The notes below the pieces were generated by a model. That model was not told where the DNA came from. It was given only the letters and a program-made list of their open reading frames with translations, and made no database searches. This document shows positions 1,715-47,766 of a stretch of 64,000 nt of DNA, one piece after another. The translations under genes and the position numbers were made by a program. Source of the stretch: an uncultured delta proteobacterium. Lineage in GTDB: Bacteria > Desulfobacterota > Desulfobacteria > Desulfobacterales > UBA5852. The stretch spans positions 39,735 through 103,734 of the forward strand of contig CAWKLN010000004.1 in the NCBI GenBank assembly GCA_963850465.1. The letters run 5' to 3'. Position 1 is the stretch's first letter; each line of letters starts with the position of its first letter.

Positions 1715-1728
1715 CCGACCAAGATTGT

Positions 1729-2559: not shown

Positions 2560-2831
2560 TCTGACCTCCATATTTAATAGGAATTCTTCCTGGGAGGTAT
2601 TATCGGTGATTTTCCAGGGAGCATTAGGACGGTTTGGTAAACGTCCCAAATGATATTTTAGAGATCCTTACTATTGCGGCGGCCATACGAAAGCCCGTCG
2701 GCGTCAGGCCCAATGCCGTGATCATTTGATTTGTCGCTCGCGGATGAAGATCGACTGGTTTGACAAGGATTGTTATCGTCTTAAAATCGCGTCAGTCCAT
2801 CGGTTGTCATTTCAAGCAAGGAGATAAGCGC

Positions 2832-3314
2832 ATGAATGTTTTAGTTCTGTATTATTCCAAGGGCGGCAACACGCGTCGTTTGGCGGAGGCCATTGCCGCG
2901 GGTGTGGCGCAGGTCGATGGGGCGACAGCCATATTGAAAACGACGGATGACGTCAAGAAGGATGATTTTGTCACGGCGGCCGGCATTATTGCCGGATCGC
3001 CGGTTTATTTCGGTACCATGGCGGCGGCGCTCAAGGGCGTGTTCGACGATTTCGTCGGTGTGCGCAAAAAGATGGAAAACAAAGTCGGGGCGGCCTTTGC
3101 CACGGCCGGGGATGCCACCGGCGGCAAGGAAACCACCCTGTTTTCGATTATCCAGGCCCTGATGATATACGGCATGATCATTGTCGGCGATCCCATGGCG
3201 GCAACGGGGCACTACGGCACGGCCTGTGTCGGTGCCCCGGATGACAAGACCATGGAAAATGGCCGCAAGTTGGGGGAACGCGTGGCGCGTCTGGCCGCAA
3301 GACTCGCGGATTGA
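2832..3314 (+). CDS. Flavodoxin-fold NAD(P)H:quinone oxidoreductase (WrbA family)
   Basis: AAGGAG precedes ATG 2832. MNVLVLYYSKGGNTRRLAEAIAAGV...GSPVYFGTMAA... matches the WrbA/flavodoxin-like N-terminus and FMN loop. Confidence 0.75.
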   Translation: MNVLVLYYSKGGNTRRLAEAIAAGVAQVDGATAILKTTDDVKKDDFVTAAGIIAGSPVYFGTMAAALKGVFDDFVGVRKKMENKVGAAFATAGDATGGKETTLFSIIQALMIYGMIIVGDPMAATGHYGTACVGAPDDKTMENGRKLGERVARLAARLAD

Positions 3315-3401
3315 GTTTGTGGTGTCTCTGCGTCGTGTTTGGAGGAGGTTCCGGCCTTCCAGGCGGTGTCGCAATTAAAAAAGCAACATTTTACAGGTTT
3401 A

Positions 3402-3483
3402 CGTCATTCCGGGCTTGACCCGGAATCCAGTTGTTTTCCCAGGTGTTACAGCACTGGATGCCGGATCGGTGTCCGGCATGACG
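3402..3483. repeat. Inverted pair of REP-like palindromic units between convergent genes
   Basis: Unit 1 is CGTCATTCCGGGCTTGACCCGGAATCCAG (3402-3430). Unit 2 (3454-3483) is the reverse complement of CGTCATGCCGGACACCGATCCGGCATCCAG. Each unit is itself a hairpin. Confidence 0.6.
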
Positions 3484-3544
3484 GGACGCAAAAGAGCCCA
3501 TTTTGTAATTACGACACCGCCGCCTTCGCCGCAATGGCAAACGA

Positions 3545-4075
3545 TCACGTGTCGTCCGGGCGGGAGAAGGCGCGGATGGTGCGGATATCCTTCTGTGGAA
3601 TGCCCAGGGATTCCAGGAACGTCTGGTGGTCATCCGGGAAAAGCCGTTCGAATTCGATGTGCCAGTGGAGCATATCCTGATCGGTCATGCCGGCGGCGCG
3701 CAGGAGCGTTGTCCACTTTTCGCGGCTCAGGCTGGACGGCATGTCGCTAAAGGACGGGTTGCCGATCAGGTTGCGGATAACTTGCTGCTGGTTGTGCAGG
3801 GCCTGAATTTGCCGGTCGACCTCCCGCAGGCGTTTTTCCAGAATGGTTTTCAGGCTGTCACCCGGTGAATCAAGGATCTGCTGAATGGCTTTTAGCGACA
3901 GTCCGATGCGTCGATAGTGGCAGATTTCTTCCAGCCGCTGGCGGTCGGCGTCGGTGTAGAGGCGATAGTTGGACGGGCTGCGGCCCGAGGGCCGCAGCAG
4001 TCCGATCCGGTCGTAATACAGCAGGGTGCTGCGGGACAACTTGAACTGTTTAGCCAGCCGACTGATGGTGGTCAC
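3545..4075 (-). CDS. MerR family transcriptional regulator
   Basis: The N-terminal HTH is TISRLAKQFKLSRSTLLYYDRIGLLRPSGRSPSNYRLYTDADRQRLEEI, with a GTG start. Confidence 0.8.
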   Translation of the reverse strand: MTTISRLAKQFKLSRSTLLYYDRIGLLRPSGRSPSNYRLYTDADRQRLEEICHYRRIGLSLKAIQQILDSPGDSLKTILEKRLREVDRQIQALHNQQQVIRNLIGNPSFSDMPSSLSREKWTTLLRAAGMTDQDMLHWHIEFERLFPDDHQTFLESLGIPQKDIRTIRAFSRPDDT

Positions 4076-4132
4076 GGTCGAGCCCTTCTTTGATCCGCCG
4101 ATGGGGCATGCCGATCACATGCGATCGATGGC

Positions 4133-4648
4133 TCATTCTGGCGGCATGTCATGTTGAGCGCCGTGTCCGGCAGCATTCAGCATGGTGCCGGTTTGCAGGT
4201 AGTGATTGAGCATTTCCTCGATGATCCTGATTTCCTGGCTATAGGACGAATCCCCATAGTGATCAATATAGGAATTGCCTTCCGGGCTCAGGGCCGTCAT
4301 GGTCTGGGTCCAGGTGGCAATCGTGCGGTCGGGCCCGTCACCCGCCAGATGGATATCCAGCCGGGTGATGCGCAGGCCGGGTGCCAGACGAATAAATTCG
4401 ATGGCGCGACAGGGTTCATAGCGTGTGACGACCCACCATTCCGGCCCCCGGTCTTCACGGAAATCGGTAAAAAAGATGCCGTTATCTTCGGCATAGCCCG
4501 TATCCGAATAGATCATGCGGCATTGCCAGATCGGTATCCAATCGTATTCCCTTTTCGGACAAAGCAGGGGGAATACCTGCCGGGGGGATGCCGCCAACGT
4601 CATGACACCCGTTTGCACACTGCGTTTCGAATGAAAGTGTTCCATCAA
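4133..4648 (-). CDS. SRPBCC (START/polyketide-cyclase-like) family protein
   Basis: Size and pattern (ASPRQVFPLL...WIPIW...) resemble the SRPBCC fold. It lies co-directionally beside the MerR gene. Confidence 0.45.
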   Translation of the reverse strand: MMEHFHSKRSVQTGVMTLAASPRQVFPLLCPKREYDWIPIWQCRMIYSDTGYAEDNGIFFTDFREDRGPEWWVVTRYEPCRAIEFIRLAPGLRITRLDIHLAGDGPDRTIATWTQTMTALSPEGNSYIDHYGDSSYSQEIRIIEEMLNHYLQTGTMLNAAGHGAQHDMPPE

Positions 4649-4914
4649 TTTCTCCTTTGCTTCGGGGTTAAAACAGATCGATAGGGACTACACTGTGAAC
4701 CCATAGACGGGTCAAGCCCGATTGGCACTGTATGGCATGGCTGGAGCCGCCCTCCGAATTGTGTTAGGATATAGGCGCCTGTGAAACGGGTGGCATGGTT
4801 GGCCGCGCATTGGCGGTGATGCCCGCGGACCAGGACACCGCCGTCCTGCACGGTATTCGCCATTGACGTCGGGGCTTCAGGTTACAAGACAAGTATCACC
4901 AGGAGAAGTGATCC

Positions 4915-7224
4915 ATGACCGATGCCGGTCGTGAAAAATTCGATCCGCCGGAACAGACGGATGGTTGTGATGATGACGCAACCGCGATCAGCCTGTCGGC
5001 GGGAGACGAATCTGACAGAATCTGCCCCATCTCGGGGTGGAGCGTCCAACGGCGGCCGGCGTGGACCCGTGTCAAATTCGAGCGGGGCTTTTCGATCACC
5101 GCGGAAATCATCGGTGGACGCATCCTGCTTACCCATAACCGCGGGCGGGCCACCCTCGAAGGCGTTCGCAAAGCATTTGATTTTACGGATGCCATCATCG
5201 AGGAGCACTTCGGCAGCCGCCCATACATTCACATATTGGATTATACCCATCTCGGCGGGACCACCCTGGATGGCCGCCGGCGATTTATCAGGCGCATGCT
5301 CAAGCGCCGGCACCAGACCGGTGTCATATTTTATGGCCTTTCGCCCATGCTGCGCATGAGCACCAAACTGGGCAAACGGCTCAATATGATTCCGTTTGAT
5401 GTTCATATCGCCAAAGACTATCCGGATGCCATCGGCCAGGCGATGGCGCTCTTAAATGAGACGAACGCGACCGCCTCGGACAGCCGTCTGCCCAAGGACA
5501 ACACGCTCGTTCATTATCGATCGCGCGATGGAATTCAGCATACCATCCTCCGGCGTGCTGACTGGCAACTGGATTTGGACGGGTTTCGCATCGCTTTTGA
5601 AATTATTGACGGCCGTATTCTGCATACCGTTTCGGAGGGTTTTTTCCGGGACACCCATTTGCCCAAGTTGATTGCCATGCGGGATCGCGTATACCGATCG
5701 CTGCTGGAGCCGCAGGACCCTCACTATATTATCGCCGGTTTTCACGGACTGAGCCGTGTGGGCCGGCGGGCGCGCAAATACTACCTGGATTCGATTTCCG
5801 CCTGGCACCGCAAGATGCGGCTGCAAGGGTATATCGCTTACGGACTCAATCCGTTTATGGCGGCCGTAGCTAATTTTTCACGGTTCATTTTGCCTTTTCC
5901 GGTCCACGTGGCAAAAGACCTGGACAGTGCCTTGCAGATTACCGCGATGGAAACCAAGGCCGCCCGAGGAAACGATGCCCCCCGACGTAAGACGTCTTTG
6001 ATATCGGGACACGGCGCCAGGGAAACGACCGATCCTGTCGAACATTTGTTGGAATATATCGGCAGCATCGACTGGGAGCGGGACGGGTTGTCCCTTTCGA
6101 AAGCCGTCAAAGCCAACAGTGCTTTCGCGCCTGTTTACGATGCCATCAGCGTGATCAAATCCGAGTTGGACGATCTGTTGCACGAAAAGCTGCATGCCGA
6201 AAAGGCGCTGGAAACCGCGCGCGATGAGTTGGATGCCCGTGTTCGGGAGCGTACCGCGGAACTCATCGAGACCAACCGGCGCCTTCAAACCGAAATTACC
6301 GAACGCCGCGAAATGGAAGGGGCGCTGCGCGCAAGCGAGAAGAATTATCGAACCCTTGTGGACAGTGTAAACAGCATCATTCTGCGATGGGACGCAGAAG
6401 GCAAAATTGTTTTCATGAATCCTTATGGGTTGAAATTTTTCGGTTATGAAGCCGAAGAACTCATCGGGGAGAATGTCGTGGGAAGCATTGTCCCGGAAAA
6501 CGAGAGTATTTCGCAGCGCGACCTTGCTGATTTGATGCACCAGATTCAGGAGGACCCCGACCGGTTTCGGAACAACGAGAACGAAAATGTTGTCCGGGAC
6601 GGTCGTCGGGTGTGGATATACTGGACCAACCGGGCCATTACCGATGCCGAAGGCCGCATCGTGGAGATTTTAAGCGTTGGAAACGATATCACCGGGCGGC
6701 GTCATATGGAAGCGGAACTTCGCCGGCTGGCAACCACCGATTTCCTGACCGGGGCTTTCAACCGCCGCCGGTTTTTTCAGAAAGCGCGGCAGGAATTCCT
6801 GCGGCACCAGCGCTATGGCCATCATTTTGCGGTCTTGCTGATGGACATGGACCATTTTAAGAAAATAAACGATACCCATGGCCATCCTGCCGGTGATACC
6901 GTGCTGAAAACATTTGTGGACACGTGCCATAACATATTCCGGGTCACGGATATCTTCGGACGCACCGGCGGCGAAGAATTCTCTGCTGTTCTTCCGGAAA
7001 CCGATGCCGCCAATGCCGTCCGTGTTGCCGAACGCCTGCGGGATCGCGTGGCGAACACGCGTGTCGATGTCGGGACCGATAACAGTCCCATCCGGTTTAC
7101 CGTGAGTATCGGGCTAACCGATCTCAAGGAAGAAGATGTGACGCTTGAATCGATGATCCGGCGTGCCGATAAAGCCCTGTATGACGCCAAACGGGCGGGG
7201 CGCAACCGCGTGATGCAGGCCTAA
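4915..7224 (+). CDS. Diguanylate cyclase with two tandem N-terminal domains of unknown function, a coiled coil, PAS and GGDEF
   Basis: The C-terminus reads ...LLMDMDHFKKINDTHGHPAGD...GRTGGEEFSAVL (GGEEF). A PAS core is present (YRTLVDSVNSIILRWDAEGKIVFMNPYG). Duplicated N-terminal modules are visible by eye. Confidence 0.85.
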   Translation: MTDAGREKFDPPEQTDGCDDDATAISLSAGDESDRICPISGWSVQRRPAWTRVKFERGFSITAEIIGGRILLTHNRGRATLEGVRKAFDFTDAIIEEHFGSRPYIHILDYTHLGGTTLDGRRRFIRRMLKRRHQTGVIFYGLSPMLRMSTKLGKRLNMIPFDVHIAKDYPDAIGQAMALLNETNATASDSRLPKDNTLVHYRSRDGIQHTILRRADWQLDLDGFRIAFEIIDGRILHTVSEGFFRDTHLPKLIAMRDRVYRSLLEPQDPHYIIAGFHGLSRVGRRARKYYLDSISAWHRKMRLQGYIAYGLNPFMAAVANFSRFILPFPVHVAKDLDSALQITAMETKAARGNDAPRRKTSLISGHGARETTDPVEHLLEYIGSIDWERDGLSLSKAVKANSAFAPVYDAISVIKSELDDLLHEKLHAEKALETARDELDARVRERTAELIETNRRLQTEITERREMEGALRASEKNYRTLVDSVNSIILRWDAEGKIVFMNPYGLKFFGYEAEELIGENVVGSIVPENESISQRDLADLMHQIQEDPDRFRNNENENVVRDGRRVWIYWTNRAITDAEGRIVEILSVGNDITGRRHMEAELRRLATTDFLTGAFNRRRFFQKARQEFLRHQRYGHHFAVLLMDMDHFKKINDTHGHPAGDTVLKTFVDTCHNIFRVTDIFGRTGGEEFSAVLPETDAANAVRVAERLRDRVANTRVDVGTDNSPIRFTVSIGLTDLKEEDVTLESMIRRADKALYDAKRAGRNRVMQA

Positions 7225-7275
7225 ATCGTTTCACTCGGGTAGTTGAACGCAGTCATCCTCTCAAGGAGATGCAAA

Positions 7276-7917
7276 ATGGCGACGATTTTGACCGACACCG
7301 AGATCCGGATCATAGGCAGCCTGATGGAAAAGGCATTGTCCACGCCGGATTACTACCCGCTCTCCCTCAATGCCCTCACCAACGCCTGCAATCAGAAGTC
7401 AAGCCGTGATCCGGTGGTGGCCTATGACGAATATGACGTACAGGCGGTTTTGGATGAACTGGCAGAAAAAAACCTGGTCAACCAGAGCAGGGTGGGGCGT
7501 GTCCCCAAATACGAAGAACTGTTTTCACAGAAGCACAACCTCGTTCCCCGGGAAGCGGCCGTCCTGTGTGTGTTGATGCTGAGGGGGCCCCAGACCGTCG
7601 GCGAGATTCGTGGCCGGACCGGCCGGTTATGCGTTTTCGACAGCCTGGAGGCGGTCGACGAAACGCTGTCAACGCTAACTGAATGGGGACTTGTCCAGCG
7701 TCAGGCGCGTCTTCCCGGCCACAAGGAATCACGCTACGCCCATTTACTGGGCGACGTGTCGGAGCCGCCCGTTGCGGAACAGGACGCCCCTGCCGATGGC
7801 GGTGCGCTTGAAAAAGTGAATCGGCTTGACCAGTTAGAAAATGAAGTCGGCCGGCTGCGGGATGATTTCTCGGAATTGCAGCAGGCGTTTGAGGCTTTTA
7901 AGAAACAGTTCGAATAG
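7276..7917 (+). CDS. yceH: YceH (DUF480/UPF0502) family protein
   Basis: AAGGAG precedes ATG 7276. LTDTEIRIIGSLMEKALSTPDYYPLSLNALTNACNQKSSRDPV...LRGPQTVGEIR...GHKESRYAHLL is collinear with E. coli YceH. Confidence 0.8.
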   Translation: MATILTDTEIRIIGSLMEKALSTPDYYPLSLNALTNACNQKSSRDPVVAYDEYDVQAVLDELAEKNLVNQSRVGRVPKYEELFSQKHNLVPREAAVLCVLMLRGPQTVGEIRGRTGRLCVFDSLEAVDETLSTLTEWGLVQRQARLPGHKESRYAHLLGDVSEPPVAEQDAPADGGALEKVNRLDQLENEVGRLRDDFSELQQAFEAFKKQFE

Positions 7918-8193
7918 ACCTCCGCATCTTTTCCTTCAGCCTGTCTCATGCTCCCGCCTGAGCCCATCAGCCGGTTGAGGATTCACTCAGCGAATCCGGC
8001 GCCCATTGAAACCGGCATTATTTGTCCTCAAGTATATTTCCGGACTGTCGATAATTCTATTTAACGATCCGTTTTGCAGGAGCGGTGTGAAAGGGGTGGA
8101 TACGGTTCGATTTCTGCTCGGGTTTCGCCACCCCCCATTCCGCTCACATGCCGGTGATCGATGAATGATAATTTCAGCAAACAGGTGCATACC

Positions 8194-8679
8194 ATGAAAA
8201 AAGTATTTGTAAACGACGATAACAAGGCCACGCTGGCCTGCCCGGCGTGTGAGCGCAGCCGGACCATCGATGCCGAGCCATTTATCTATATGGCACGCGT
8301 CGTACGAATAAAGATCAAATGCCCCTGCGGCGTTCACTACCCGGCGGAACTGGAACGGCGGCGTCATTTTCGGAAGGTCGTCAATTTCCAGGGCACCTAT
8401 TCCCAGACACCCGGCAGCCGGCATGTGGGAAGGGGCGAAATGGCCGTGTTGGACCTGTCCCGCACGGGTGTCAAGATGCGCCTCAGCGGAAATAAGGCGC
8501 TCCGCATCGGGGACAAACTCATGGTCCAATTCCAGCTTGACGATACCAAGCGATCAAAGATTCGCAAGGAAAGTGTGGTCCGCAGAATTGACGGGTCGGA
8601 GCTGGGTGCCGAATTCACGCCGACAGGTCCGGCGGACCCGAATGCCAAAGCCATCGGGTTTTATCTGTTTGCGGCCTGA
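8194..8679 (+). CDS. PilZ domain protein with N-terminal zinc ribbon
   Basis: It has CPAC...CPCG followed by the PilZ motifs RRRHFR and DLSRTG. Confidence 0.7.
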   Translation: MKKVFVNDDNKATLACPACERSRTIDAEPFIYMARVVRIKIKCPCGVHYPAELERRRHFRKVVNFQGTYSQTPGSRHVGRGEMAVLDLSRTGVKMRLSGNKALRIGDKLMVQFQLDDTKRSKIRKESVVRRIDGSELGAEFTPTGPADPNAKAIGFYLFAA

Positions 8680-9064
8680 TCCGCATCCCTGGTTTCTTCG
8701 ATCTTCCACCAGTGATCAAACAGGCATCTCACCGGACAATGGATCTCCTATCAACGTGGTCCACACGAATAAATAGTAGCCGACCTCCCGCCAATATGCG
8801 ATATTCTTATCGACGCCCCCTTGGTCATATTTGACATCTCCAGCCCAGACACATCACGTGGTTGCCGTGGGAGCAACCAACGCAAGTCTTTCCAAATAAT
8901 CCTTAAAATCCAAAGCAACCACTTGCTGTGAGAGATCCATGAACTATACCGCAGTCGGTCGCGTGAACAAACTTCTCAGCATGGCATCAGTCAGGAGGTC
9001 GGCTGAAAAGGAGTTGTGATTGCCGCGATAGAAGGCGTTAGGCTGGTATAAGTTAAGGGCGTCC

Positions 9065-10553
9065 CTATAGTCGGATTTCCCGGTTGAATCGTTCCGGTCC
9101 GATAATGAACTTAACCGTCGCCAGTGACCCGAGAATGGCACCCAGGATGCCGGGCGCCATAACGCTCTGGCCGGCCAGGTAGAGCCCTTTGACCGCGGTG
9201 CGGTTCAGGACCGCGGCGGACAGCAACTGGCGGCTTGAACGCATGACACCGTAAGCCGATCCATTGGGGCTGTTGACCCAATCCCGGATGGATAGCGGCG
9301 TGTAGACATCCAGCAGTTCCATATCATTGAAGGCGCCCGTGATGGGTTCGATCGCACGGATCAGCTTGCGCGCCACGGATTGTTTAAGGCGGTTGTAGTC
9401 CTCGCCGCGCTTTCCGGTTCGGGTGTGCTGCCAGGGCTGCCACAAGGCATCGTGGCCGGAAGTCAGCAGGGAGAGAAGAAGATATCCGGGGCGTTCGCAT
9501 GGCCTTAATTGAAGATAGATGAGATCGTCGACAGCGCCATTTTGTTTGGTCCGGATCGAAAAAATATTGTGGTCGATGGGCTGATGCCCGTTGCGGGGTA
9601 CCAGGGCATTGACCGCGAACATTCCGGCGGTGTCCTTCAGCCCCGTGATGCGGCGCCGGTAGGAGGGTTTGACATCTTCCGGGGCCAGGAGATCCAGCAC
9701 GATTTTGGGATGGATGGCGGCAATGACCCGGGTGGCGGCGATCGGCTCACCATTGTCAAGTATAACGCCCGCTACCTGACCCTGGCGGATATCGATGCGC
9801 CGGGCGGCATGCCCCGTCACAAGTTTTCCGCCCAATGCCGTCAGGCGCTGATGCAGGACGTCCACCATATGGGTGCCGCTGCTTTGCAACCGCCAGGACG
9901 AGAAGAGATAGCTGGCCAGGATCATGGTGTGAAAAAACAAGGGGCACTGGTCCGCCGGCACGCCAATCCATACGGACGGCACGCTGATAACGCTTTTGAG
10001 CCCGGGCGAGCACCCGGCGCGATCTAAAAAGGCCCACAGGGGTTCGGTTTGTTCGATCAGGTTGGCCATGGGCTGCGGTTCATAAAGAAAACCGAGGCGA
10101 TGAAAATCTGCGGCGCTGGCGCGCAACTGTTCCATGAAGGCCTTGATCGGCGCGTTTTCGGCCGGAAAGGCGTCTTTAAGATGGGTTTCATAGGCATCCA
10201 GCCCCACCGGCATGTCAAACTGAGCAGGACCATTGGCCGGGTTTGCAAAATAATAGCGGTCGACCGGTGCGTTGCAACCCATGCGTTCCAGCGGCAGATG
10301 ATCGGTGATGCCAAGGAAATCAAAACAGCGCCGCAGGATTTGCCCCTGATCCAGCGCCCCCAGATAGTGCAGTCCCACGTTGCAGTGCACGCCCTTGCGC
10401 ACAAAGCTTCGCAGCATGCCGCCGGGCTGCGCGTTTCTTTCAATAACGGTGACGTCAAAACCCAGGGTGGCCAGAATGACGGCCGCGCTGAGACCGCCGA
10501 TACCCGATCCGATGACCAGGGCGGTTTCTCTGGGTTTATCAACGCTGCGGCAT
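9065..10553 (-). CDS. CrtI/phytoene-desaturase-like NAD(P)/FAD-dependent oxidoreductase with a frame problem at the 5' end
   Basis: The body is a 450-aa ORF from ATG 10417. The dinucleotide-binding motif (ALVIGSGIGGLSAAVILATLGFDVTVIERN) lies upstream in the same open frame, which has no ATG, GTG or TTG. A Shine-Dalgarno plus ATG at 10553 is off by one frame. Confidence 0.7.
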
Positions 10554-17138: not shown

Positions 17139-17777
17139 TCAGTGGGCAACGCGGGTTTGCGGGTGCTTGTCGATCCATTGGCCCATATTCGTATCCTCGG
17201 ATTTGATTTCAGGCAGTATGCGGTTGAAAAAGTGCCCTTGAATGCTCATCAAACCCTTTTCGCTGGGATACCAGAGGCTGCTGGTTTCCTTGTCATAGAG
17301 GACGAAGGTATAATCGTAGGTCCACCCGGAAGGCGCCAGGGTAAGGTCTCTTCCATCGATTTGCCGGCTGTACACAGCGGCCAGATCCACCAGCGGTCAG
17401 TAGGCCGCGGCGATGGGAACCTCTCCAATGTGCGTATTGGCGATCTCGTGGCGCGTCAATGTGCGAACAACATAGGCATGGGCATCGGGCCCGTTACTCA
17501 CGCCGATGACCCGGGTCTGCGAATCAACCGCCCGAACATTGTCATCGAGGTCTGACGCATCCAGCGGTCGGATGCTGTCCCGGCCGATACCGAACTGAAA
17601 CCCGCGCGGATCGAAACCGATGGATACGGCCTGGGTGATGTCCCAGCGCTCTCCGGTACGATCAACGATATAGACCTTGTCATCGGCACGCACGACCACG
17701 GCGGCGTCAAACACCACGCTCAGGCTAAACGACAGGATAAACAGGGAAGACAGGGCGGTTTTAACAGTTGGTCTCAT
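17139..17777 (-). CDS. Secreted DUF3179 family protein with in-frame TGA (17397-17399); candidate selenoprotein
   Basis: Two same-frame ORFs are separated only by TGA. It has a signal peptide and is collinear with DUF3179 (...YDKETSSLW...). The TGA replaces the first Cys of the family YCPLC motif (AAAY-U-PLVD). Confidence 0.6.
17363..17382 (-). promoter_or_regulatory. SECIS-like hairpin downstream of the DUF3179 UGA
   Basis: On the minus strand, UGA is followed by 15 nt and then GCCGCUG-UGUA-CAGC(C)GGC. This is 7 bp with one bulge and an apical loop containing GU. Confidence 0.4.
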
Positions 17778-20125: not shown

Positions 20126-20457
20126 GAGTCATTCCCCCCCGTTAGCGCTGATGCTGGCGATGATGGCAGGCCGATATTCAGATGAACAGTTAAGTTCAAC
20201 TAACACGTAATTCGCAGGCTTTATCTTTGTGATTCGATACCGGCGACCCATTCAAGCAGCCTTAAATCACGCTGTCAAGCATACAAAATGATTATCGACC
20301 GGCGTGTTGCAACACTGGCGAGAAACGTCGGCGATAAAACGCTTTACATTTTACGCCACATAAATTTTAAGTAGTTCTAATTTTAGTCTTTCGATAGACC
20401 GATTCGACCACTGACGTGGTTTCTCACACCCACCCAACCTCATATGGAGGAGCATCC

Positions 20458-23658
<3,201 letters not shown>

Positions 23659-23751: not shown

Positions 23752-23919
23752 TTACAAGGGTTCGGGGTTGCAGAGATTCTTCTGAGCGACGGAAGATCGA
23801 CCGCAGTTTTTACAGAAGTGGTAGGCCGGTCGGATTAATTTCACGAAGTCTTCTCTATGGGATTCGATATAATTATCCTCTGCCAGCGCACAGAGCGTAT
23901 TATCTTTTGGATCGGTCAT
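23752..23919 (-). CDS. Small Cys-rich protein (55 aa), below the ORF-track cutoff
   Basis: AAGGAG lies 7 nt before ATG 23919. The product is MTDPKDNTLCALAEDNYIESHREDFVKLIRPAYHFCKNCGRSSVAQKNLCNPEPL. Confidence 0.5.
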   Translation of the reverse strand: MTDPKDNTLCALAEDNYIESHREDFVKLIRPAYHFCKNCGRSSVAQKNLCNPEPL

Positions 23920-24020
23920 TATTGTTCTCCTTTCAAGTCATTTTTACTCCCCAATGATGTAAACGCGTTCGCATCACAGGACATTATTAAAAAAAATCAT
24001 TTTTAAACCGGCGTTCAGCA

Positions 24021-24140
24021 CTACAGGTGGGCAACGAGCCACTTGTAAAAATAGGAAAATGTCAGAACGGCAACCAGGCCGCCGCACCACAACACAGCGA
24101 ACCACAACCATTGGCGTTTTTTTTCAGTAAGCGGATTCAT
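24021..24140 (-). CDS. DUF2474-like small membrane protein (39 aa) overlapping the cydB stop
   Basis: MNPLTEKKRQWLWFAVLWCGGLVAVLTFSYFYKWLVAHL is a single TM peptide in the position typical of the small subunit-like ORF after cydB. Confidence 0.5.
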   Translation of the reverse strand: MNPLTEKKRQWLWFAVLWCGGLVAVLTFSYFYKWLVAHL

Positions 24141-25153
24141 GGGAGGCCTTTCCCCGGAAAAGGTAATAGCAATAGGCCGTATAGGTGAGCACGACCGGCA
24201 ACATGATCACCGTACCCACCAACAGCAGAGACTGGGACTCAGGGGCCGCCGCGGCCTGTCTGAACGTCACCTGATGAGGCACCAGCCATGGCCACAGGCT
24301 GATTCCGAGGCCAAGGTAGCCCAATAGAAAAACTCCGATACTCATGAAAAAGGGCCGATACTCGCGTCCGCTGAGTGCAGGTCACGCCAGATCACGATAG
24401 AACAGGACCGCCGTCCGAGGGGAATGGGCAGCAGGTAAAATAAATTGGGCAGGCTGAACCACAGGCATACGCATCGATCCGGATTCATCAGGGGCATACT
24501 GATGCTTACGACGCCGATGAAAGACCCCGACGTAACCCAATACGTAGGACGCACATTTTGCGTGCCCATTGCTGGGTCTCCCCTCGGTTTTCATCACCAG
24601 CCAGGTGCCGCCCAGTAGCGCGTACCCGAATACCAGCGCCATGCCGGTCATGACACTGTAGGCATTGATGCCAGTCGAAAGCGCCGCCGGCAAAGCTGCG
24701 CCCTGTCGACTGGCAACACCCTGGACGACTGCTGCCGATGATGATTCCCTGCATAAACGCTGCCGTCAGCGAGCCGTAATGAAAGGCATAATCCCAGATG
24801 CGTCGAGACTTCCGCTGGCCTTGAAGCGGAATTCAAAGGCCACCCCCCTGAAGACCAGCCCCAGCAGCATGCCGATGACCGGCAGGTAGAGGGCCGGCAT
24901 CAGAATGGCATAGGCCAGAGGAAAGGCGGCAAACAGACCTCCGCCACCCAAAACCAGCCAGGTTTCGTTGCCGTCCCAGAAGGGGGCGATGGAATTCATC
25001 ATGCGATCCCGACAGCGTGTCCGAGGGCGCAAACGGGAAGAGAACGCCCACACCGAGGTCGAACCCGTCCAGAATCACATAGAGCATCACCGCCGTGATG
25101 ATCAGGCCGTACCAGATCAATGGCAGATCCACAAATGCTTCAAAACTAAACAT
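24124..25153 (-). pseudogene. cydB: Cytochrome bd oxidase subunit II, multiply frameshifted
   Basis: Recognisable CydB segments (MFSFEAFVDLPLIWYGLIITAVMLYVILDGFDLGVG; SIAPFWDGNETWLVLGGGGLFAAFP; VMTGMALVFGYALLGGTWLVMKTEG; ...YCYYLFRGKA) are spread over three frames. There are about 8 frame changes and an in-frame TGA at 24382. Confidence 0.8.
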
Positions 25154-26554
25154 ATTGCTCTCCTTTTTCCACCCCCCGGGGAGCGACCAGGGGCGGTTTC
25201 TGCACGCCGTGGGCACCATAGGCTTCTTCCTGGTTTCCAGGGCCTTTGGCGATCAGGCGACTTATATAGTAAACACCCGCGCCAAAGATGACGCCGTAAG
25301 TGATGACAAATGCCGCCAGGGACAGGGCAATGGGCTGTCCACCCACCGGCGAGACGGCCTCGGCCGTGCGCATGACGCCATAAATGATATAGGGCTGCCG
25401 GCCGATCTCCGTCACGAACCAGCCCGCCAGCACGGCGATGAAACCGGAAGGTGTCAGGGCCATGCACCAGTATTGAAACCAGGGGGTGTCGAAGAGCCGT
25501 TTGCGCAGGTGCAGGACCAGGGCCATCACCCCTGTGAGGATCATGAGCATGCCGATACCCACCATAATTCGGAAGGACCAGAAAACCCAGGCCACCGGTG
25601 GTTGATCTTCCCGGGGCCACTCTTTCAACCCTTTGACCTCGCCATCCAACTCGTGGGTAAGAATCAGGCTGGACAGCTTCGGGATTTCGATGGCGTAGCT
25701 GGTTTTTCTGGGCTTTCTGGTCGGGCCAGCCGAAAAGCACCAGCGGGGCGCCCTGCTGCGTTTCCCACAGGCCTTCCATGGCGGCCACTTTGGCCGGCTG
25801 GTGTTTCAAGGTATTGAGGCCGTGCAGATCGCCGAGGAGAAGCTGCAGTCGGGGCGACAAAAATGGCCATGATCATGGCCATGCCCAGCATGATGCGGGC
25901 GTGCTTTACATACTGTCGACGCCACAGGTAGAAAGCGCCGATGCCGCCCACCACAAAGGCGGTGGTGAGGTAAGCCGCCATGATCATGTGGGCGAAGCGG
26001 AACGGGAAGGACGGATTGAAATATCATGTCCAGCCAGTCGGTGGGGTAGAGCAGACCGTCGTCTCCCCATCCGAAAGCCCTGCGGGGTTTGCATCCAACT
26101 GTTGGCGGAAAGGATCCAGAATGCAGACAACAGCGTTCCAAAAGCCACAATCACTGTCGACGCAAAATGCATGCGTGGGCTTACCCGATTCCAGCCGAAA
26201 AGCATCACGCCCAGAAAAGATGCCTCCAAGAAGAAGGCGGTCGAGCACCTCGTAGCCCAGCAGTGGGCCTAGTACGTTCCCGGCTTTGTCTGAGAAGACC
26301 GACCAGTTGGTGCCAAACTGGAAAGACATTACGATGCCGGACACAACGCCCATACCAAAGGCCACCGCAAATATCTTGACCCACATGCGGTAGATTTCGG
26401 CGTAGAGCGTGTTGCCGGTTTTGAGCCAGCGCCATTCTATGACGGCCAGCCAGCTTGCCAGACCGATGGTGAAGGCCGGGAAAATAATGTGAAAAGAGAT
26501 GGTGAAGGCGAACTGAATCCGTGCCAGTAATATTGGATCAAGATTGTCGAACAT
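25146..26554 (-). pseudogene. cydA: Cytochrome bd oxidase subunit I, multiply frameshifted
   Basis: A GAGGTG Shine-Dalgarno precedes ATG 26554. Six collinear CydA segments are joined by frame changes near 26240, 26064, 26018, 25849 and 25700. Confidence 0.85.
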
Positions 26555-26640: not shown

Positions 26641-26979
26641 TTAGCGGTAAGCCGACTGTATCCGCATGATGGCTTCTTGCTCCCAGGCGGCGTTTGTCCT
26701 CAGAACATCGCGCATGCCTTCCTGCCAAGGATAGGCCACCCAAAAGCCGGCTCCGGTAAAGTCGAAATACGCCTGCTGAACAACGATTGTCTGACGGCCG
26801 TCCCTTATCAAGCGAATGAATCCCCAATGTTAGCGCTGGCCGGAAGATCTCGGATCGATCAGGCGAAATTGCAGCTGATGGTTGTCCGCGTCAGTCGTCG
26901 TTTTCCGGATGAATCGCTTGCCCGGGGCAGCCGAATAGTCTGTTTCCGTTGATTTGTCCTGGTGCGAGTCTTTGGTTTT
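26641..26979 (-). pseudogene. Gene remnant upstream of cydA (no start codon, in-frame TAA)
   Basis: The frame is open from 26979 with no ATG, GTG or TTG. An in-frame TAA sits at 26830-26832, followed by 62 protein-like codons (HWGFIRLIRDGRQTIVVQQAYFDFTGAGFWVAYPWQEG...). Confidence 0.35.
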
Positions 26980-27086: not shown

Positions 27087-28037
27087 ATGAAAACAAAAAA
27101 CTACGAAATAAAATACGTTGCGCAACGCACCGGACTCAGTGTTCACCGGATCAGAGCCTGGGAGCGCCGCTATCAGGCGGTGACCCCGGAAAGAACCGCG
27201 ACAGACCGGCGGCTCTATTCGGAATCGGACATACGCCGCCTGCAGCTTCTTCGTCAGGCAATTGACGTAGGTCACCGCATTTCGAAGATTGGTCGCCTGG
27301 CACTGGACGACCTGATGAAGCTCGTCAATCACAATCCCGCAATCGGTCCGTCTTCGCCGGCAGCGGTCACCATTCCGGGGAAACCCGGGCAGGCGGAACT
27401 GGTCCAGATGGCCTATTGCGCCGTGAAGGCACTGGATGCGGATGCCCTGGAGGCGTTTCTGCTGCGCGCTCAGGTAAGTTTCCCGCGGCGACGCTTCATC
27501 GAGGGGTTGCTTGTGATGTTATTTGATAAGATCGGTAAGGGCTGGGTTCAGGGTACAATTGGAATCGCGCACGAACATATGGCCAGTAACGTTGTAAGGT
27601 CCTTTTTGGGTGCGAATCTGCGGGAAATAGTTCCGACACCGGGCGCCGCCGGCATTGTGGTGGCGACTCTCAGCGGGCAGCGTCATGAATTGGGTGCCAT
27701 GTCCGCGGCGTTAGCGGCGGCTGATGCCGGCTGGCAGCCACTGTATCTCGGGCCGGATCTCCCGGCCGAAGCGATTGCGGCGGCCGTCGAGCAAACCGGT
27801 GCGAAGGTGGCCGCGATCAGTATAGCCTTTACGGTCAGCAGCCAGCAGTTGATCCGGGAAACGCGAAAACTTGGTCAGCTATTGAAGGAAAGGGCCGCCA
27901 TTATTGCCGGTGGCCGGGCGAACGCAGACGTTCGGGCCGCTTTGGCTGACATGGGCATACGCTGGTGTGGCACGCTGGAGGCCCTGCATTTTGCTTTACT
28001 TGACGAGAACCTGGTTCGGCGGGAATTGATAACATGA
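27087..28037 (+). CDS. carH: CarH/LitR-type MerR-family regulator with an AdoB12-binding photoreceptor module
   Basis: It has a MerR HTH (YEIKYVAQRTGLSVHRIRAWERRYQAV), the helical-bundle signature W-x9-E-H (GWVQGTIGIAHEH) and a Rossmann B12 domain with the ExHxxG-type loop (SGQRHELGAM...GWQPLYLGPDLP). Confidence 0.8.
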   Translation: MKTKNYEIKYVAQRTGLSVHRIRAWERRYQAVTPERTATDRRLYSESDIRRLQLLRQAIDVGHRISKIGRLALDDLMKLVNHNPAIGPSSPAAVTIPGKPGQAELVQMAYCAVKALDADALEAFLLRAQVSFPRRRFIEGLLVMLFDKIGKGWVQGTIGIAHEHMASNVVRSFLGANLREIVPTPGAAGIVVATLSGQRHELGAMSAALAAADAGWQPLYLGPDLPAEAIAAAVEQTGAKVAAISIAFTVSSQQLIRETRKLGQLLKERAAIIAGGRANADVRAALADMGIRWCGTLEALHFALLDENLVRRELIT

Positions 28038-44248: not shown

Positions 44249-44941
44249 ACGGACCGACGAAGCTGTCAATCATCGCCTGATCGGTTGCGATGGTCATGAC
44301 ATCGCCGCGTTGAAACGCCAAGCATTTTTTTGTTTAAGCCCGACGCGCGCTTCCTGACATTTCTAACCCCCCGCCGCTCTGTAGATGACGGCCTTCGGCC
44401 CATCTTTCACTTGTATCCACCATGAAAGACACCCTCGACTCCGGTGACGATGCCTTGCATCAGCGGCTTCGGGTATTTCTGTCTCTGTGAAAAATTCGAG
44501 CGGCGTGACCGGAACCCGGCGACGGATGACAAGAGATTGTTGCCGCCAACAGTAGCCTCATCTTCCATTGTGTTGTTTCCTTTCCTTAGCATAGGCTCTT
44601 CGATAGTGAGTAGTGGGGATCTTTATTGGTCAATAAATATGACTTGATGATGCAATGGTAATGGGTTATGGCACATAATGTTCCTGCCTTTCTGCCTACG
44701 CTAAAGCTATCATTTCAATGAGGTCACAGCTATGATACCGGATGAACTTGAAGCGTATAAGACCATGCCATTACGCACTGTTGTTGCACACACATCAAAT
44801 GCTGAAGATGACGAACGTGGCCAAGCAGGGAGGCGACCGAAGGCGATTGCGACCAATGCTTGATACTGCAAGCGATTCCCTGTATAAATAGCAGGGGGGA
44901 TCTATATTCATTTATTAAGCAACAATGAACGGAGACTGAGT

Positions 44942-45364
44942 GTGGGTTTTTTTAAATCGTCCAGGAATTCGTCGATCGATCTTCTCAAGGGTAAGGAAGC
45001 ATTCCAGCAGGCCATCGCGAAGGAGCGCTATCGGTCGGACCGCAGCGACCACAAATATTCGCTCCTGATCATATCGCTGGCGATCAAAAGCGAAGAAGAC
45101 GAGCGCATTGGGAGGGCCATCGCCACGATCCGCAAGCGCATCCGGGCCATCGACGAAATCGGCTGGTACGAAGAGAACCAGTTGGGCATTATTCTTCCCT
45201 ACACTTCCATGACGGGGGCCGAGCTTCTGGCAGGCGAAATCTACGACATCATCACCACCTACTTGGAGCCAGCCGAGTGTCGGGCCTACGAGCTTTTTTG
45301 TTATGATCCGGAAACGGTCCCGGAAGCCGGAATGCCAACATGGAAGAAAAACCTGAAGGAATGA
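44942..45364 (+). CDS. Degenerate GGDEF-like domain protein
   Basis: YSLLIISLAIKSEEDE...IGWYEENQLGIILPYTSMTGAELLAGEI keeps the GGDEF fold pattern, but the signature is replaced by YEENQ. The start is GTG after GGAG. Confidence 0.4.
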   Translation: MGFFKSSRNSSIDLLKGKEAFQQAIAKERYRSDRSDHKYSLLIISLAIKSEEDERIGRAIATIRKRIRAIDEIGWYEENQLGIILPYTSMTGAELLAGEIYDIITTYLEPAECRAYELFCYDPETVPEAGMPTWKKNLKE

Positions 45365-45529
45365 GCTCTCCGCGACTTCCCCGTCGGTTTCTGATGGTAT
45401 AAGTACAGATATGCAAAACTTATTTCAATAAGAAGGGTGCGGCATGCAATTTCCAACAACCAGCCCCACTTCTCGCGTCAGGGAGGTGGGGTTTTGTGTT
45501 TTTGAGCACATTGATTCGGAGAGGTGACT

Positions 45530-45943
45530 ATGTTCTACAGATTCAACTTCTTTGAAGATAGAGCGCTATTGAAAGTTATGATTTATGGACAAGCGGACCA
45601 GCAGAGCATGCGGTCCAGAATCTCCTTGTTAGCCAACGATCACCGATGGAAACGCGAATACAAGCTACTAATCGATTATTCCGGTGTCACGGTGATCGAT
45701 TCGCCGAAGGAGTTTTGCGATACCCTCAGAGGTCTATTGAATGAAATCCCGGAGGAAAGACTCCCGGTTGCAATTGCGTACGTATTCCCGGACCGCCTTT
45801 TCTGCCAGTGCTTTGACGCTACCCATTCTGTGCACAGCATCAAGGCAAGGTGCAAAGTCAGCTTTTTCAGGCAAGAAGAGGCAGCCATCGACTGGCTTGA
45901 AAAACTGGCTGATGAAAGCATTGCCGCAGAAGAGCTACCCTGA
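45530..45943 (+). CDS. Hypothetical protein
   Basis: GGAGAGG precedes ATG 45530. The ORF lies in the low-GC islet and I recognise no family. Confidence 0.4.
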   Translation: MFYRFNFFEDRALLKVMIYGQADQQSMRSRISLLANDHRWKREYKLLIDYSGVTVIDSPKEFCDTLRGLLNEIPEERLPVAIAYVFPDRLFCQCFDATHSVHSIKARCKVSFFRQEEAAIDWLEKLADESIAAEELP

Positions 45944-46742
45944 AATCGTGAACCCTGACAGATCAAATTGAACTTCGGTCCTGCGCATCAACTGTTCCAC
46001 TAAATAAACCCATGAATTGATAATCTCATGATATCGGCATTTTATATGTAATCGAGATTCGATAATTAGTTTCTGGCAAGGTAAACACAGCGTTTGGCAG
46101 CCCTGTTTGCCGTGGGATAGTTTCAATCCATCTGTAATTGAGTGATACCTTCGGATTATCATGTTTACAGGCGTTCGCCAGGCGACCTACACCAACTTAA
46201 AGGCCAAAATATTTACCGGGTCATGCAACCGGTAATAGAAAACGACGGCCTGGACGATGTTGCCCGCCAACAAGCCTACTCCAAGCTTGCAGTGGGGGTG
46301 ACCAAATGAGAGACCGATATTGCCAATCACCTTTCGCATGATTAGCTTGCTGTCGAAAGCTTTTACGACGACACCACGGTAAGGTTGTAAGATCTTTTTG
46401 TAGCGACCTCCACCCACCACACCGAATTTAATGCCCACCTCCTCCGCTACGATTACGACATGCTCTGCGGCGAGTTACGTAAGCCGGGTTAAGAGCCGCC
46501 ACCCGATTGGCAAAATTGGGTGCGCGAGCACGGTACGCATGCCTTCCCATTCTGCAAATTGGCAGGGGAGTAGTTAAGGGCAAAGCCACCGGCCGCATTT
46601 CAAAGCGCAACGGCATGGTTGAGCGTGCTATCACTTATAATTTCCGATGTACGCGGTGTTAGGACATGCGGGCATCGTATGACACCAATAGGCTGCCCAA
46701 CGGATTGCGCCCGTTTAAGGGCCGGAAGGTAAAGGTGACCGG

Positions 46743-47183
46743 ATGAAGAACAATTTCCAACATGCGGCCGTTAGGGCAGGTATCGGCATGGTGGGCCTGG
46801 GCCTATTGATAGGGCTTTTGACTTTGACCCCGGTTAAGGCGGAGCAAAGCCGGCAACAAAGAAATTCCGTTGGTGGGTGGGATACCAATGAGGGCGCGAT
46901 TATGCCCCTTGCCAATGGCCGTATACGCTTACCAGACGGTGGAATTTGCCGTCCAGATGGTGAGGGTGGGTGGTATTGCCCAAGCGGCCATTACACGCCC
47001 CAGGCCGGTGGTGGTAGCACGACGACCAAAAAGTCGGGCCTTACAGCCACACCAAACGACCAAGGGGGGTATGACACGCCTAAAGGGCCGGTTGCGAGGG
47101 ATGGCTATGGTGGGTATGTTAAGCCCTCGGGCGTGTATATTTTGCCACGTAGCGCAACTGGGGAGAGCATTGTGGAGGATTAA
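46743..47183 (+). CDS. Secreted Gly-rich protein with repeated GG[WY] motifs
   Basis: AAGGTG precedes ATG 46743. It has a signal peptide and the repeats GGWDT, GGWYCP, GGYDTPKG and GGYVKPSG. Confidence 0.5.
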   Translation: MKNNFQHAAVRAGIGMVGLGLLIGLLTLTPVKAEQSRQQRNSVGGWDTNEGAIMPLANGRIRLPDGGICRPDGEGGWYCPSGHYTPQAGGGSTTTKKSGLTATPNDQGGYDTPKGPVARDGYGGYVKPSGVYILPRSATGESIVED

Positions 47184-47207
47184 GCAAACCCAATAGCATC
47201 AAGGGGC

Positions 47208-47234
47208 GGTGCCACCATGGGCCACCCTTTTTTT
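47208..47234 (+). terminator. Probable intrinsic terminator
   Basis: An imperfect hairpin GGTGCCACCATGGGCCACC is followed by C and T7. Confidence 0.45.
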
Positions 47235-47468
47235 ATCCAAAAAATCCAACAATGAAAATGATTTATTACATATCCCTTCTGCTATCTGCTACTCCACACA
47301 GGCTTTTATTTAACCGTAAAACGTGTCGTACCTCCAACCTGCAAAATAACCCGATTAATTGTATCCTTTATGCTCCCGCACTTATCAAAACGCCCCATTA
47401 TTTGTGATGGACAATCCATATCCAATCGAAAGCAGGGTGAACCCGGCACTGAAATCTGCCCCTCGGGT

Positions 47469-47639
47469 CTACCCAAAAATGTTTTCAATCCACCTGATCG
47501 CCGCCACATCGCTGATGGTTTCCAGATACCGTTGTGTTGTTGACATGTTCGCTTGTCGCCGGATGACCTTGCGTGCGATTTCGATCGGAACACCGGATTA
47601 TGCGGCGCCAGTCGCTGTATGTTGTCGCAGGTCATGATG
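47469..47639 (-). pseudogene. Tyrosine recombinase/integrase C-terminal remnant
   Basis: The minus-strand frame gives HHDLRQHTATGAA*SGVPIEIARKVIRRQANMSTTQRYLETI.... This carries box II (HDLR..T, catalytic Y) with an internal TAA, and a stop immediately upstream. Confidence 0.7.
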
Positions 47640-47766
47640 GTCGGATTTGACGCGTCATTCAATCGACCCCATCTTTACGGTTCATTGCCGGCAGATCATT
47701 ATAATGACGACGAGGGGTAAATACCCCTGACGCCCATTATCTTATGAATTATCAAGGGGTTTACAT

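What the first reader, a model, noticed from the sequence alone, without database searches (positions are those of the whole stretch)
24021..26554. cydAB operon shattered by about 13 frame changes in 2.4 kb while neighbouring small ORFs stay intact
Every part of CydA and CydB is recognisable, but it must be read by hopping between frames. In cydA the changes are near 26240, 26064, 26018, 25849 and 25700. In cydB they are near 25020, 24815, 24730, 24710, 24670, 24578, 24553 and 24400, plus an in-frame TGA at 24382. Where I could resolve them, the lesions are single-base indels not located in homopolymers. Both insertions and deletions occur. Elsewhere in the 64-kb window I found only three frame lesions, so the density here is roughly 100-fold higher. 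The overlapping DUF2474-like ORF (24021-24140) and the Shine-Dalgarno-equipped 55-aa Cys-rich ORF (23752-23919) are unbroken. The remnant upstream of cydA (26641-26979) is also dead. Possible explanations are recent loss of oxygen-reducing capacity, a locally error-prone or low-coverage assembly patch, or targeted mutagenesis.
Basis: seen in the sequence. Interest (0 to 1): 0.55.

Follow-up and report, generated by a model that had tools for sequence, protein, structure and literature searches.

The report
Frameshift-riddled cydAB, probably an assembly artefact
The cytochrome bd oxidase genes in this window are broken by 18 tiny insertions and deletions, but with those removed the genes look healthy and selected, so the damage is most likely a local assembly or consensus error and not a real dead gene.

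Summary
Between 26243 and 24374 (- strand), cydA and cydB carry 18 small indels relative to six intact orthologous loci: 12 one-base insertions, 4 two-base insertions and 2 one-base deletions. About 11.8 kb of flanking coding sequence checked against orthologues has none.

The indels are the only sign of damage. With them removed, CydA (467 aa) and CydB (338 aa) are stop-free and match their Pfam models end to end. Their dN/dS is 0.06-0.10, the same as between intact orthologues. Window-specific changes are concentrated at third codon positions. The 16:2 excess of insertions is the reverse of the deletion bias of real bacterial pseudogenes.

Most one-base insertions sit beside a third codon position. 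Nine of 12 can be read as both alleles of a synonymous SNP kept side by side. CydB is also a mosaic of two lineages.

I conclude this is a local consensus or assembly artefact, either collapsed haplotypes or an unpolished patch (confidence about 0.8). Genuine very recent pseudogenisation is the main rival (about 0.12). Read-level data were not available, so this remains an inference. Two other apparent lesions in the window are probably selenocysteine TGA codons.

The parts
25149..26554 (-). cydA (cytochrome bd oxidase subunit I, short Q-loop type). It reads as 467 aa only after 5 inserted bases are removed.
   Evidence: PF01654 hits on three ORF pieces. The corrected protein covers the model 1-418/418 at 578 bits. 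Orthologues in L002-L005 are intact at 465-470 aa.
24124..25153 (-). cydB (subunit II). It reads as 338 aa only after 11 insertion events (15 bases) are removed and 2 deletions are filled.
   Evidence: PF02322 hits on four ORF pieces. The corrected protein covers the model 1-302/302 at 312 bits. Intact 338-aa orthologues exist in L084, L085 and L002-L005.
25707..26243 (-). Lesion cluster A: five +1 insertions at 26243, 26068, 26022, 25847 and 25707.
   Evidence: MAFFT alignment to four intact orthologues and a frameshift-aware alignment I wrote myself.
24374..25016 (-). Lesion cluster B: 13 events (7 one-base insertions, 4 two-base insertions, 2 one-base deletions). Twelve of them lie within 24816-24374.
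   Evidence: A 691-nt lesion-free stretch (25706-25017) separates clusters A and B.
24021..24140 (-). Intact 39-aa hydrophobic ORF that overlaps the cydB stop codon. It may be a small oxidase-associated subunit; its family is not established.
   Evidence: Conserved at the same position in L002-L005, L084 and L085. Pfam gave no hit except a chance-level one.
23752..23919 (-). Intact 55-aa ORF with a CKNCGRS...C motif, followed by a hairpin.
   Evidence: Conserved in L003, L004, L005 and L084. No Pfam hit.
26641..26811 (-). Small ORF upstream of cydA (56 aa from a TTG start). Only its C-terminal 47 aa are shared with an 82-113 aa ORF in L002.
   Evidence: Neither version has a Pfam hit.
27087..28037 (+). 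Divergently oriented MerR-HTH / B12-binding-domain regulator, intact. A homologue sits at the same position upstream of cydA in the relatives.
   Evidence: Pfam PF13411, PF02607 and PF02310. Single-frame full-length match to L002 (78%) and to L003-L005 (48-55%).
20416..23658 (+). carB (1080 aa), convergent neighbour, intact. It serves as the internal control for sequence quality.
   Evidence: One-frame alignment over 1075-1079 residues at 90-94% identity to L002-L005.

Best explanation
The cydAB operon of this Desulfobacteraceae genome is most likely intact in the organism. The 18 frame lesions are most likely errors made when the consensus sequence of this roughly 1.9-kb stretch was built. 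The most likely route is that reads or contigs from two closely related haplotypes were piled together over this highly conserved gene. These could be co-occurring strains or species, or two gene copies. Where the haplotypes differ, mostly at synonymous third codon positions, the aligner or consensus step represented a mismatch as an insertion plus a deletion and kept both bases. That gives a +1 (or +2) insertion, and occasionally both bases are dropped, giving -1. A closely related variant is that this patch is long-read-quality consensus that short-read polishing skipped because the pile-up was ambiguous. Shown: the indels exist, are local and are insertion-biased, and the underlying coding sequence carries the signature of continuing purifying selection. 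Inferred: that the cause is technical, and which technical route produced it.
For: (1) With the indels removed, both genes are stop-free and cover their Pfam models end to end. Conserved motifs survive, such as FHIIFP, RFAHM, EVLTAFFLEASF and GWFVTEIGRQP. (2) dN/dS of the corrected genes against L002 is 0.061 (cydA) and 0.097 (cydB), within the 0.02-0.09 range seen among intact orthologues. Window-only nucleotide changes by codon position are [9,2,19] and [10,4,21], matching L002's [9,4,23] and [8,3,21]. (3) Even in the densest lesion zone (24830-24370), window-only changes at sites invariant in four relatives hit 3.3% of positions 1+2 but 24% of position 3. That is the pattern of a diverged functional allele (L003 and L005 show 4.1% and 26-35%), not of random error or neutral decay. 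(4) Insertions outnumber deletions 16:2 (P = 0.0013). This is opposite to the deletion bias I recall for genuine bacterial pseudogenes (Mira, Ochman and Moran 2001; my own knowledge). (5) Eleven of 12 one-base insertions abut a third codon position (null 0.63, P = 0.03). Nine of 12 can be read as two synonymous alleles side by side, such as CT[C/G], AT[A/T], AC[T/G], AC[G/C], GG[C/A], GT[C/G] and TT[C/T] (null 0.46, P = 0.04). At 24529 and 24399 the two bases are exactly the L084 allele and the L002 allele. (6) The sequence is mosaic. CydB residues 1-70 and 151-338 are P0122/L084-like (19-20 of 20 per window), while residues about 75-150 match P0181 best (18-20 of 20, against 13-17 for P0122). 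Lesion count per 90 nt rises with local divergence from the near relative L002 (rho 0.44, P = 0.025). (7) There are 0 lesions in about 11.8 kb of adjacent orthologue-checked CDS, so the rest of the contig is high quality. (8) There is a published precedent. In a collapsed PacBio assembly, nearby allelic variants caused wrong read alignments and introduced indel errors that truncated ORFs (PMC8445201). Frameshifts from consensus indels are a recognised problem in long-read MAGs (PMC9262707).
Against: No reads, coverage data or assembly metadata were available, so the technical origin is inferred and not observed. The doublet and third-position statistics are only modestly significant (P about 0.03-0.04), and parsing the 2-nt insertions as pairs of doublets is flexible. 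Some lesions lie in segments that are 92-97% identical to L084 (for example 24610-24551), so not every lesion sits in a visibly mosaic patch. Other long-read MAG loci I fetched show 0-3 lesions in cydAB and also have lesions in their flanks. A cluster of 18 in an otherwise clean contig is therefore unusual even for an artefact. dN and omega are somewhat raised in the lesion zone (omega 0.135 against 0.06). Part of this comes from codons I could not re-frame exactly between closely spaced indels.
Confidence: 0.8

Rival explanations
1. Genuine, very recent pseudogenisation. The lineage has just lost its bd oxidase, and the 18 indels are real mutations fixed in the population.
For: The sequence as deposited encodes no full-length CydA or CydB. 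The upstream small ORF has also lost its N-terminal part relative to L002. dN on the window branch is raised in the densest lesion zone (omega 0.135 against 0.06 in clean zones). Loss of an oxygen-detoxifying oxidase in a strict anaerobe is biologically plausible (inference).
Against: Eighteen neutral indels should be accompanied by roughly 100 or more unconstrained substitutions. That figure assumes roughly ten substitutions per indel, my estimate from own knowledge. Instead, positions 1+2 at otherwise invariant sites changed in only 0.7-1.6% of cases in clean zones and 3.3% in the lesion zone, with a 7-fold third-position excess. Overall dN/dS is 0.06-0.10. The corrected frame has no nonsense codon in 805 codons. 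The 16:2 insertion excess contradicts the deletion bias of bacterial gene decay (the bias itself is my own knowledge). All six orthologous loci with the same synteny are intact.
Confidence: 0.12
2. A real, localised mutational shower or targeted mutagenesis. Repeated break-and-repair, for example end-joining that adds 1-2 untemplated bases, or another local error-prone process, peppered 1.9 kb with small insertions within a very short time.
For: The lesions are extremely clustered and insertion-biased, consist of 1-2 nt events outside homopolymers, and come without accompanying substitutions. A burst of indel-only events would look like this.
Against: I know of no bacterial process that produces about 18 independent small insertions in one operon. 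No shared sequence motif is seen at the sites. The preference for third codon positions and synonymous doublets has no reason under break repair, but follows naturally from merging two alleles. No nuclease, CRISPR or repeat feature was seen next to the locus.
Confidence: 0.04
3. The DNA is correct and the genes are still expressed through recoding, by multiple programmed frameshifts or RNA-level deletion editing.
For: The underlying reading frame is under purifying selection, as would be expected if the product were still made.
Against: Eighteen recoding sites with no shared slippery or editing motif would be needed. The inserted bases are of all four kinds. Six close orthologues need no recoding. 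Rfam finds no recoding element in the window.
Confidence: 0.01

Closest known systems
Indel artefacts in collapsed-haplotype consensus assemblies (Cosentino et al. 2021, Trypanosoma brucei Lister 427, PMC8445201)
   Same: In both cases apparent frameshifts truncate ORFs, and allelic variants lying close together caused misalignment and spurious indels in a consensus built from two haplotypes. The underlying genes are functional.
   Different: That case is a diploid eukaryote with read data showing the cause. Here the source is a bacterial, probably metagenome-derived, contig. The two-haplotype origin is inferred only from codon-position, doublet and mosaic patterns.
Frameshift errors in long-read metagenome-assembled genomes (Sereika et al. 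2022, PMC9262707; proovframe preprint 10.1101/2021.08.23.457338)
   Same: Small consensus indels split genes that are intact in relatives. I saw the same in other fetched MAG loci: L001, L086, L087 and L051-L053 have 1-4 frame breaks in cydAB.
   Different: Those errors are described as mainly homopolymer-linked and are scattered over the whole contig. Here they are mostly non-homopolymer, 16:2 insertions, and confined to 1.9 kb of an otherwise lesion-free 64-kb window.
Genuine bacterial pseudogenes (gene decay with deletion bias)
   Same: The ORFs are disrupted while the homology remains recognisable.
   Different: There is no relaxation of selection, no nonsense substitutions and an insertion bias instead of a deletion bias.
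Cytochrome bd-type quinol oxidase CydAB, short Q-loop (cyanide-insensitive-oxidase-like) operons of Desulfobacterales
   Same: The gene order is cydA, cydB, a small hydrophobic ORF and a CxxC ORF. Both Pfam models match full length, and CydA aligns at 88-93% and CydB at 81-90% amino-acid identity to Desulfobacteraceae orthologues, computed.
   Different: Only the frame lesions in the deposited sequence differ.

Membership tests
Cytochrome bd oxidase subunit I (PF01654) / subunit II (PF02322) | Full-length match to the family profile above the curated cut-off | tested here: met
   The corrected CydA matches 1-418/418 at 578 bits (cut-off 26.2). The corrected CydB matches 1-302/302 at 312 bits (cut-off 35.6). 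The uncorrected sequence gives only fragments.
Cytochrome bd oxidase subunit I (PF01654) / subunit II (PF02322) | Conserved haem- and quinol-site motifs of CydA: the N-terminal His in helix 1, the His in ...RFxHM..., the acidic pair in EVLxAFFLE, and GRQPW/Y | tested here: met
   All are visible in the corrected translation and identical to the intact orthologues. Their assignment to haem ligands rests on my knowledge of E. coli CydA and was not tested structurally.
Cytochrome bd oxidase subunit I (PF01654) / subunit II (PF02322) | An uninterrupted reading frame in the DNA as given | tested here: not met
   Eighteen frame lesions.
Genuine pseudogene | Relaxed selection on the disrupted lineage (dN/dS approaching 1, substitutions spread evenly over codon positions) | tested here: not met
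   dN/dS is 0.06-0.10 overall and 0.135 in the densest zone. There is a 7-fold third-position excess at otherwise invariant sites.
Genuine pseudogene | An indel spectrum typical of bacterial decay, with deletions at least as common as insertions | tested here: not met
   16 insertions against 2 deletions.
Genuine pseudogene | Lesions supported by the sequencing reads | not testable with these tools
   No reads were available. No conspecific sequence exists in the protein database (best hits 90-91%) or in the JGI contigs.
Consensus or assembly artefact (collapsed haplotypes or unpolished patch) | Errors confined to a patch while flanking sequence is clean | tested here: met
   18 lesions in 1.87 kb against 0 in about 11.8 kb of orthologue-checked CDS.
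Consensus or assembly artefact (collapsed haplotypes or unpolished patch) | Removing the indels restores a sequence indistinguishable from a functional allele | tested here: met
Consensus or assembly artefact (collapsed haplotypes or unpolished patch) | Indels coincide with sites where two haplotypes differ (two-allele doublets, mosaic ancestry) | tested here: inconclusive
   Nine of 12 insertions read as synonymous doublets (P = 0.04) and 11 of 12 are next to a third position (P = 0.03). CydB is a mosaic of P0122-like and P0181-like segments. Lesion count correlates with local divergence (rho 0.44, P = 0.025). These results are suggestive, not decisive.
Consensus or assembly artefact (collapsed haplotypes or unpolished patch) | Abnormal coverage or mixed alleles in the read pile-up | not testable with these tools
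   Raw reads were not available.

The most novel reading that the evidence does not exclude
The lesions are real in the living population. A burst of insertion-biased 1-2 nt frameshifts, confined to 1.9 kb, destroyed a cydAB operon that had been under purifying selection until immediately before sampling. This would imply a local indel-generating process, such as repeated break repair by end-joining or another targeted mutagenic mechanism, that is not described in bacteria.
Probability: 0.05. Interest if true: 0.6.

Novelty: not a real feature. Interest (0 to 1): 0.1.

Why it matters
If taken at face value, the locus would be annotated as a pseudogene. The organism would then be scored as lacking an oxygen-detoxifying bd oxidase, which is wrong for metabolic inference in this sulfate-reducer lineage. 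The case is a useful quality-control example. Dense, insertion-biased frameshifts in a conserved gene of an otherwise clean contig, with dN/dS unchanged after frame correction, mark a consensus error and not gene decay. Automated pseudogene calls in metagenome-derived genomes should apply this test. Biologically the operon itself is ordinary.

Tried and rejected
(1) I tried to find the source genome or a conspecific copy, to see the locus without lesions. The protein searches gave only the contig's own gene call (P0001) and relatives at 91% or less (CydA C-terminus) and 90% or less (CydB). An exact look-up of P0001 found no contig. The cluster listing gave no accession. Two exact-match scans of JGI metagenome contigs found nothing. 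(2) P0121, a cluster mate of P0001, turned out to be a GroES-CydA-MutS fusion on a contig with 0.69x coverage, which is uninformative. (3) I asked whether cydAB is recurrently shattered in other MAGs, which would point to a locus-specific process. Other long-read contigs have 0-4 frame breaks in cydAB, but also have breaks in flanking genes, so this is ordinary scattered noise. (4) A codon-usage frame plot to find lesions elsewhere in the window was too noisy to use. I replaced it with orthologue-guided tblastn. (5) I looked for a donor lineage of the divergent cydB patch at the DNA level. DNA for P0181 could not be fetched, and L088 (P0190) is only 82-88% identical there. (6) No shared sequence motif, such as a methylation or restriction site, was seen at the lesion sites. 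(7) Rfam found no RNA element in the window. (8) I had first suspected a real split or recoded cydA, because all top CydA hits were under 300 aa. The suspicion did not hold: full-length intact cydA (465-470 aa) is present in L002-L005, and the long-contig fragments I checked lie on contigs with frame breaks in other genes too.

Full report
**The locus.** The - strand between 26554 and 24124 carries cydA and cydB of a cytochrome bd quinol oxidase, cut into many frame pieces. Seven separate ORF fragments hit PF01654 or PF02322. A scan of species-representative genomes found orthologous loci in Desulfobacteraceae/Desulfobacterales MAGs. L003-L005 share the gene order cydA, cydB, a 39-aa ORF, a 55-aa CxxC ORF, then convergent carB, with a MerR-type regulator upstream. 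In L002 carB and purF lie upstream of cydA instead and the 55-aa ORF is degenerate. In L002, L003, L004 and L005, cydA (465-470 aa) and cydB (about 338 aa) are intact. A later protein search found a closer relative, the short-read contig L084. It is 90-100% identical in nucleotides over clean stretches and also carries intact cydB and both small ORFs.

**Checking the observation.** Alignment of the window to these loci shows 18 indel events between 26243 and 24374. Twelve are one-base insertions, four are two-base insertions and two are one-base deletions. A frameshift-aware alignment I wrote myself agrees with this count.
- The reported in-frame TGA at 24382 is out of frame after correction.
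- The lesions form two clusters, 26243-25707 (5 events) and 25016-24374 (13 events), separated by 691 clean bases.
- The neighbouring genes from 18.7 to 35.6 kb each align to orthologues in a single frame over their full length.
- That is zero lesions in about 11.8 kb against 18 in 1.87 kb, with probability about 3e-16 under a uniform rate.

The cluster is far beyond chance.

**Is the gene decaying?** With the inserted bases removed, CydA (467 aa) and CydB (338 aa) are free of stops. They cover their Pfam models end to end, at 578 and 312 bits.
- dN/dS against the near relative L002 is 0.061 for cydA and 0.097 for cydB. The intact orthologues compared with each other give 0.02-0.09.
- Changes unique to the window fall on codon positions 1, 2 and 3 as [9,2,19] and [10,4,21]. 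L002 shows the same pattern.
- In the densest lesion zone (24830-24370) the window differs at sites invariant in four relatives at 3.3% of positions 1+2 and 24% of position 3. This is the profile of a diverged functional allele, not of random error or neutral decay.
- Assuming roughly ten substitutions per indel (my estimate from own knowledge), a real pseudogene that had accumulated 18 neutral indels should carry on the order of a hundred unconstrained substitutions. These are absent.
- Insertions outnumber deletions 16:2 (P = 0.0013). This is opposite to the deletion bias of bacterial gene decay, which I know from the literature and did not test here.

The other half, heterogeneous reads, could not be tested.

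**What kind of artefact?** Three patterns point to a consensus built from two haplotypes.
- Eleven of the 12 one-base insertions abut a third codon position (null 0.63, P = 0.03). Nine can be read as both alleles of a synonymous SNP kept side by side, such as CT[C/G], AT[A/T], AC[T/G], AC[G/C], GG[C/A], GT[C/G] and TT[C/T] (null 0.46, P = 0.04).
- At 24529 and 24399 the two bases are exactly the L084 and L002 alleles. The two-base insertions can be parsed as two adjacent doublets, for example AA[T/C][C/G]GA, but that parsing is flexible.
- The sequence is mosaic. CydB residues 1-70 and 151-338 are nearest to P0122/L084, while residues about 75-150 are nearest to a different lineage, P0181. Against L084, dS is 0.60 in the lesion zone and 0.19 in the clean 3' part.
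- Lesion counts rise with local divergence from the near relative L002 (rho 0.44, P = 0.025).

A published precedent exists. In a collapsed PacBio assembly, nearby allelic variants caused misalignment and spurious indels that truncated ORFs (PMC8445201). An alternative technical route is a patch of long-read-quality consensus that short-read polishing skipped. I cannot separate the two routes without reads. Each statistic here is only modestly significant, so I treat the sub-mechanism as likely but not shown.

**Caveats.** No reads, coverage data or accession were obtainable. No conspecific sequence exists in the collections I searched. Some lesions lie in segments that are 92-97% identical to L084. 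Other long-read MAG loci have at most a few breaks in cydAB and also have breaks in their flanks, so an 18-lesion cluster in an otherwise clean contig is unusual even for an artefact. omega is mildly raised in the lesion zone (0.135), partly because codons between closely spaced indels cannot be re-framed exactly.

**Rivals.** Real, very recent pseudogenisation remains possible (about 0.12). It needs an indel-only, insertion-biased burst that also prefers third codon positions. A targeted or localised mutational shower (about 0.04) and recoding (about 0.01) have no specific support.

**Comparison with known things.** The operon is an ordinary short-Q-loop cytochrome bd oxidase operon of the Desulfobacterales. 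The lesions resemble consensus indel artefacts described for collapsed or long-read assemblies. The label 'DUF2474-like' for the 39-aa ORF has no Pfam support. The upstream ORF (26641-26811) retains only the last 47 residues of a longer ORF seen in L002, and its status is open.

**Verdict.** It is most likely not a biological feature. Interest is low (0.1). The practical lesson is that frame-corrected dN/dS, the insertion-to-deletion ratio and the codon position of indels can distinguish consensus errors from gene decay when reads are not to hand.

Noticed in passing
window 53146-53793 (- strand); TGA at 53544-53542: An AhpC/TSA-type thiol peroxidase-like gene reads through as 215 aa with an in-frame TGA exactly at the first cysteine of the redox motif (...FYRGAW-TGA-PYCN...). 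A stable hairpin (CUGGAGCU-GGA-AGCUCUGG) starts 15 nt downstream. This is probably a selenocysteine codon with a SECIS-like element, not a lesion.
   Followed up: partly
window 17139-17777 (- strand); TGA at 17399-17397: A DUF3179 gene has an in-frame TGA. I read that position, from memory of the family's YCPLC motif, as the conserved cysteine (...PIAAAY-TGA-PLV...). The two ORF pieces match consecutive parts of the Pfam profile (18-64 and 70-146 of 292). This is a possible selenoprotein. The protein also ends early relative to the profile.
   Followed up: partly
window 27087-28037 (+): A MerR-HTH regulator with two B12-binding domains (CarH-like architecture) is transcribed divergently from cydAB. 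A homologue sits at the same position in L002 (78%) and in L003-L005 (48-55%). This hints at B12- or light-linked control of the oxidase operon.
   Followed up: no
window 23752-24140 (- strand): Two small ORFs downstream of cydB are conserved across relatives. One is 39 aa and hydrophobic and overlaps the cydB stop. The other is 55 aa with a CKNCGRS...C motif. Neither has a Pfam family. L084 has about 120 extra bases between them.
   Followed up: partly
window 24700-24930 (cydB residues about 75-150): This cydB segment is closest to a different CydB lineage (P0181; 18-20 of 20 residues per window) than the rest of the gene, which is P0122/L084-like. The cause is either natural recombination or chimeric consensus. 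The donor DNA could not be fetched.
   Followed up: partly
window 44250-47990: A 3.7-kb stretch of lower G+C (0.49-0.51 against about 0.57) has only short ORFs (146 aa or less) and no Rfam match. It sits between a TrkA-like channel gene and a 623-aa ORF that I judged by eye to carry an HATPase-like motif. It looks like an accessory island.
   Followed up: no
L002 (CAVSSY010000008.1) 1500-9100: In L002, the relative closest to the window in cydA, carB and purF lie upstream of cydA instead of downstream of cydB, and purF is split into two ORFs there. Window carB and purF are closer to L003/L004 (91-94% aa) than to L002 (84-90%), while cydA and the regulator are closer to L002. The phylogenetic signal across the locus is therefore incongruent.
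   Followed up: partly
L082 (ENA ERZ650212 NODE_10151, 1372 bp, coverage 0.69): The gene call P0121 is a fusion of GroES-like, CydA and MutS-like segments in one ORF. This is a chimeric low-coverage contig, and it shows that conserved cydA pieces get mis-joined in metagenome assemblies.
   Followed up: no
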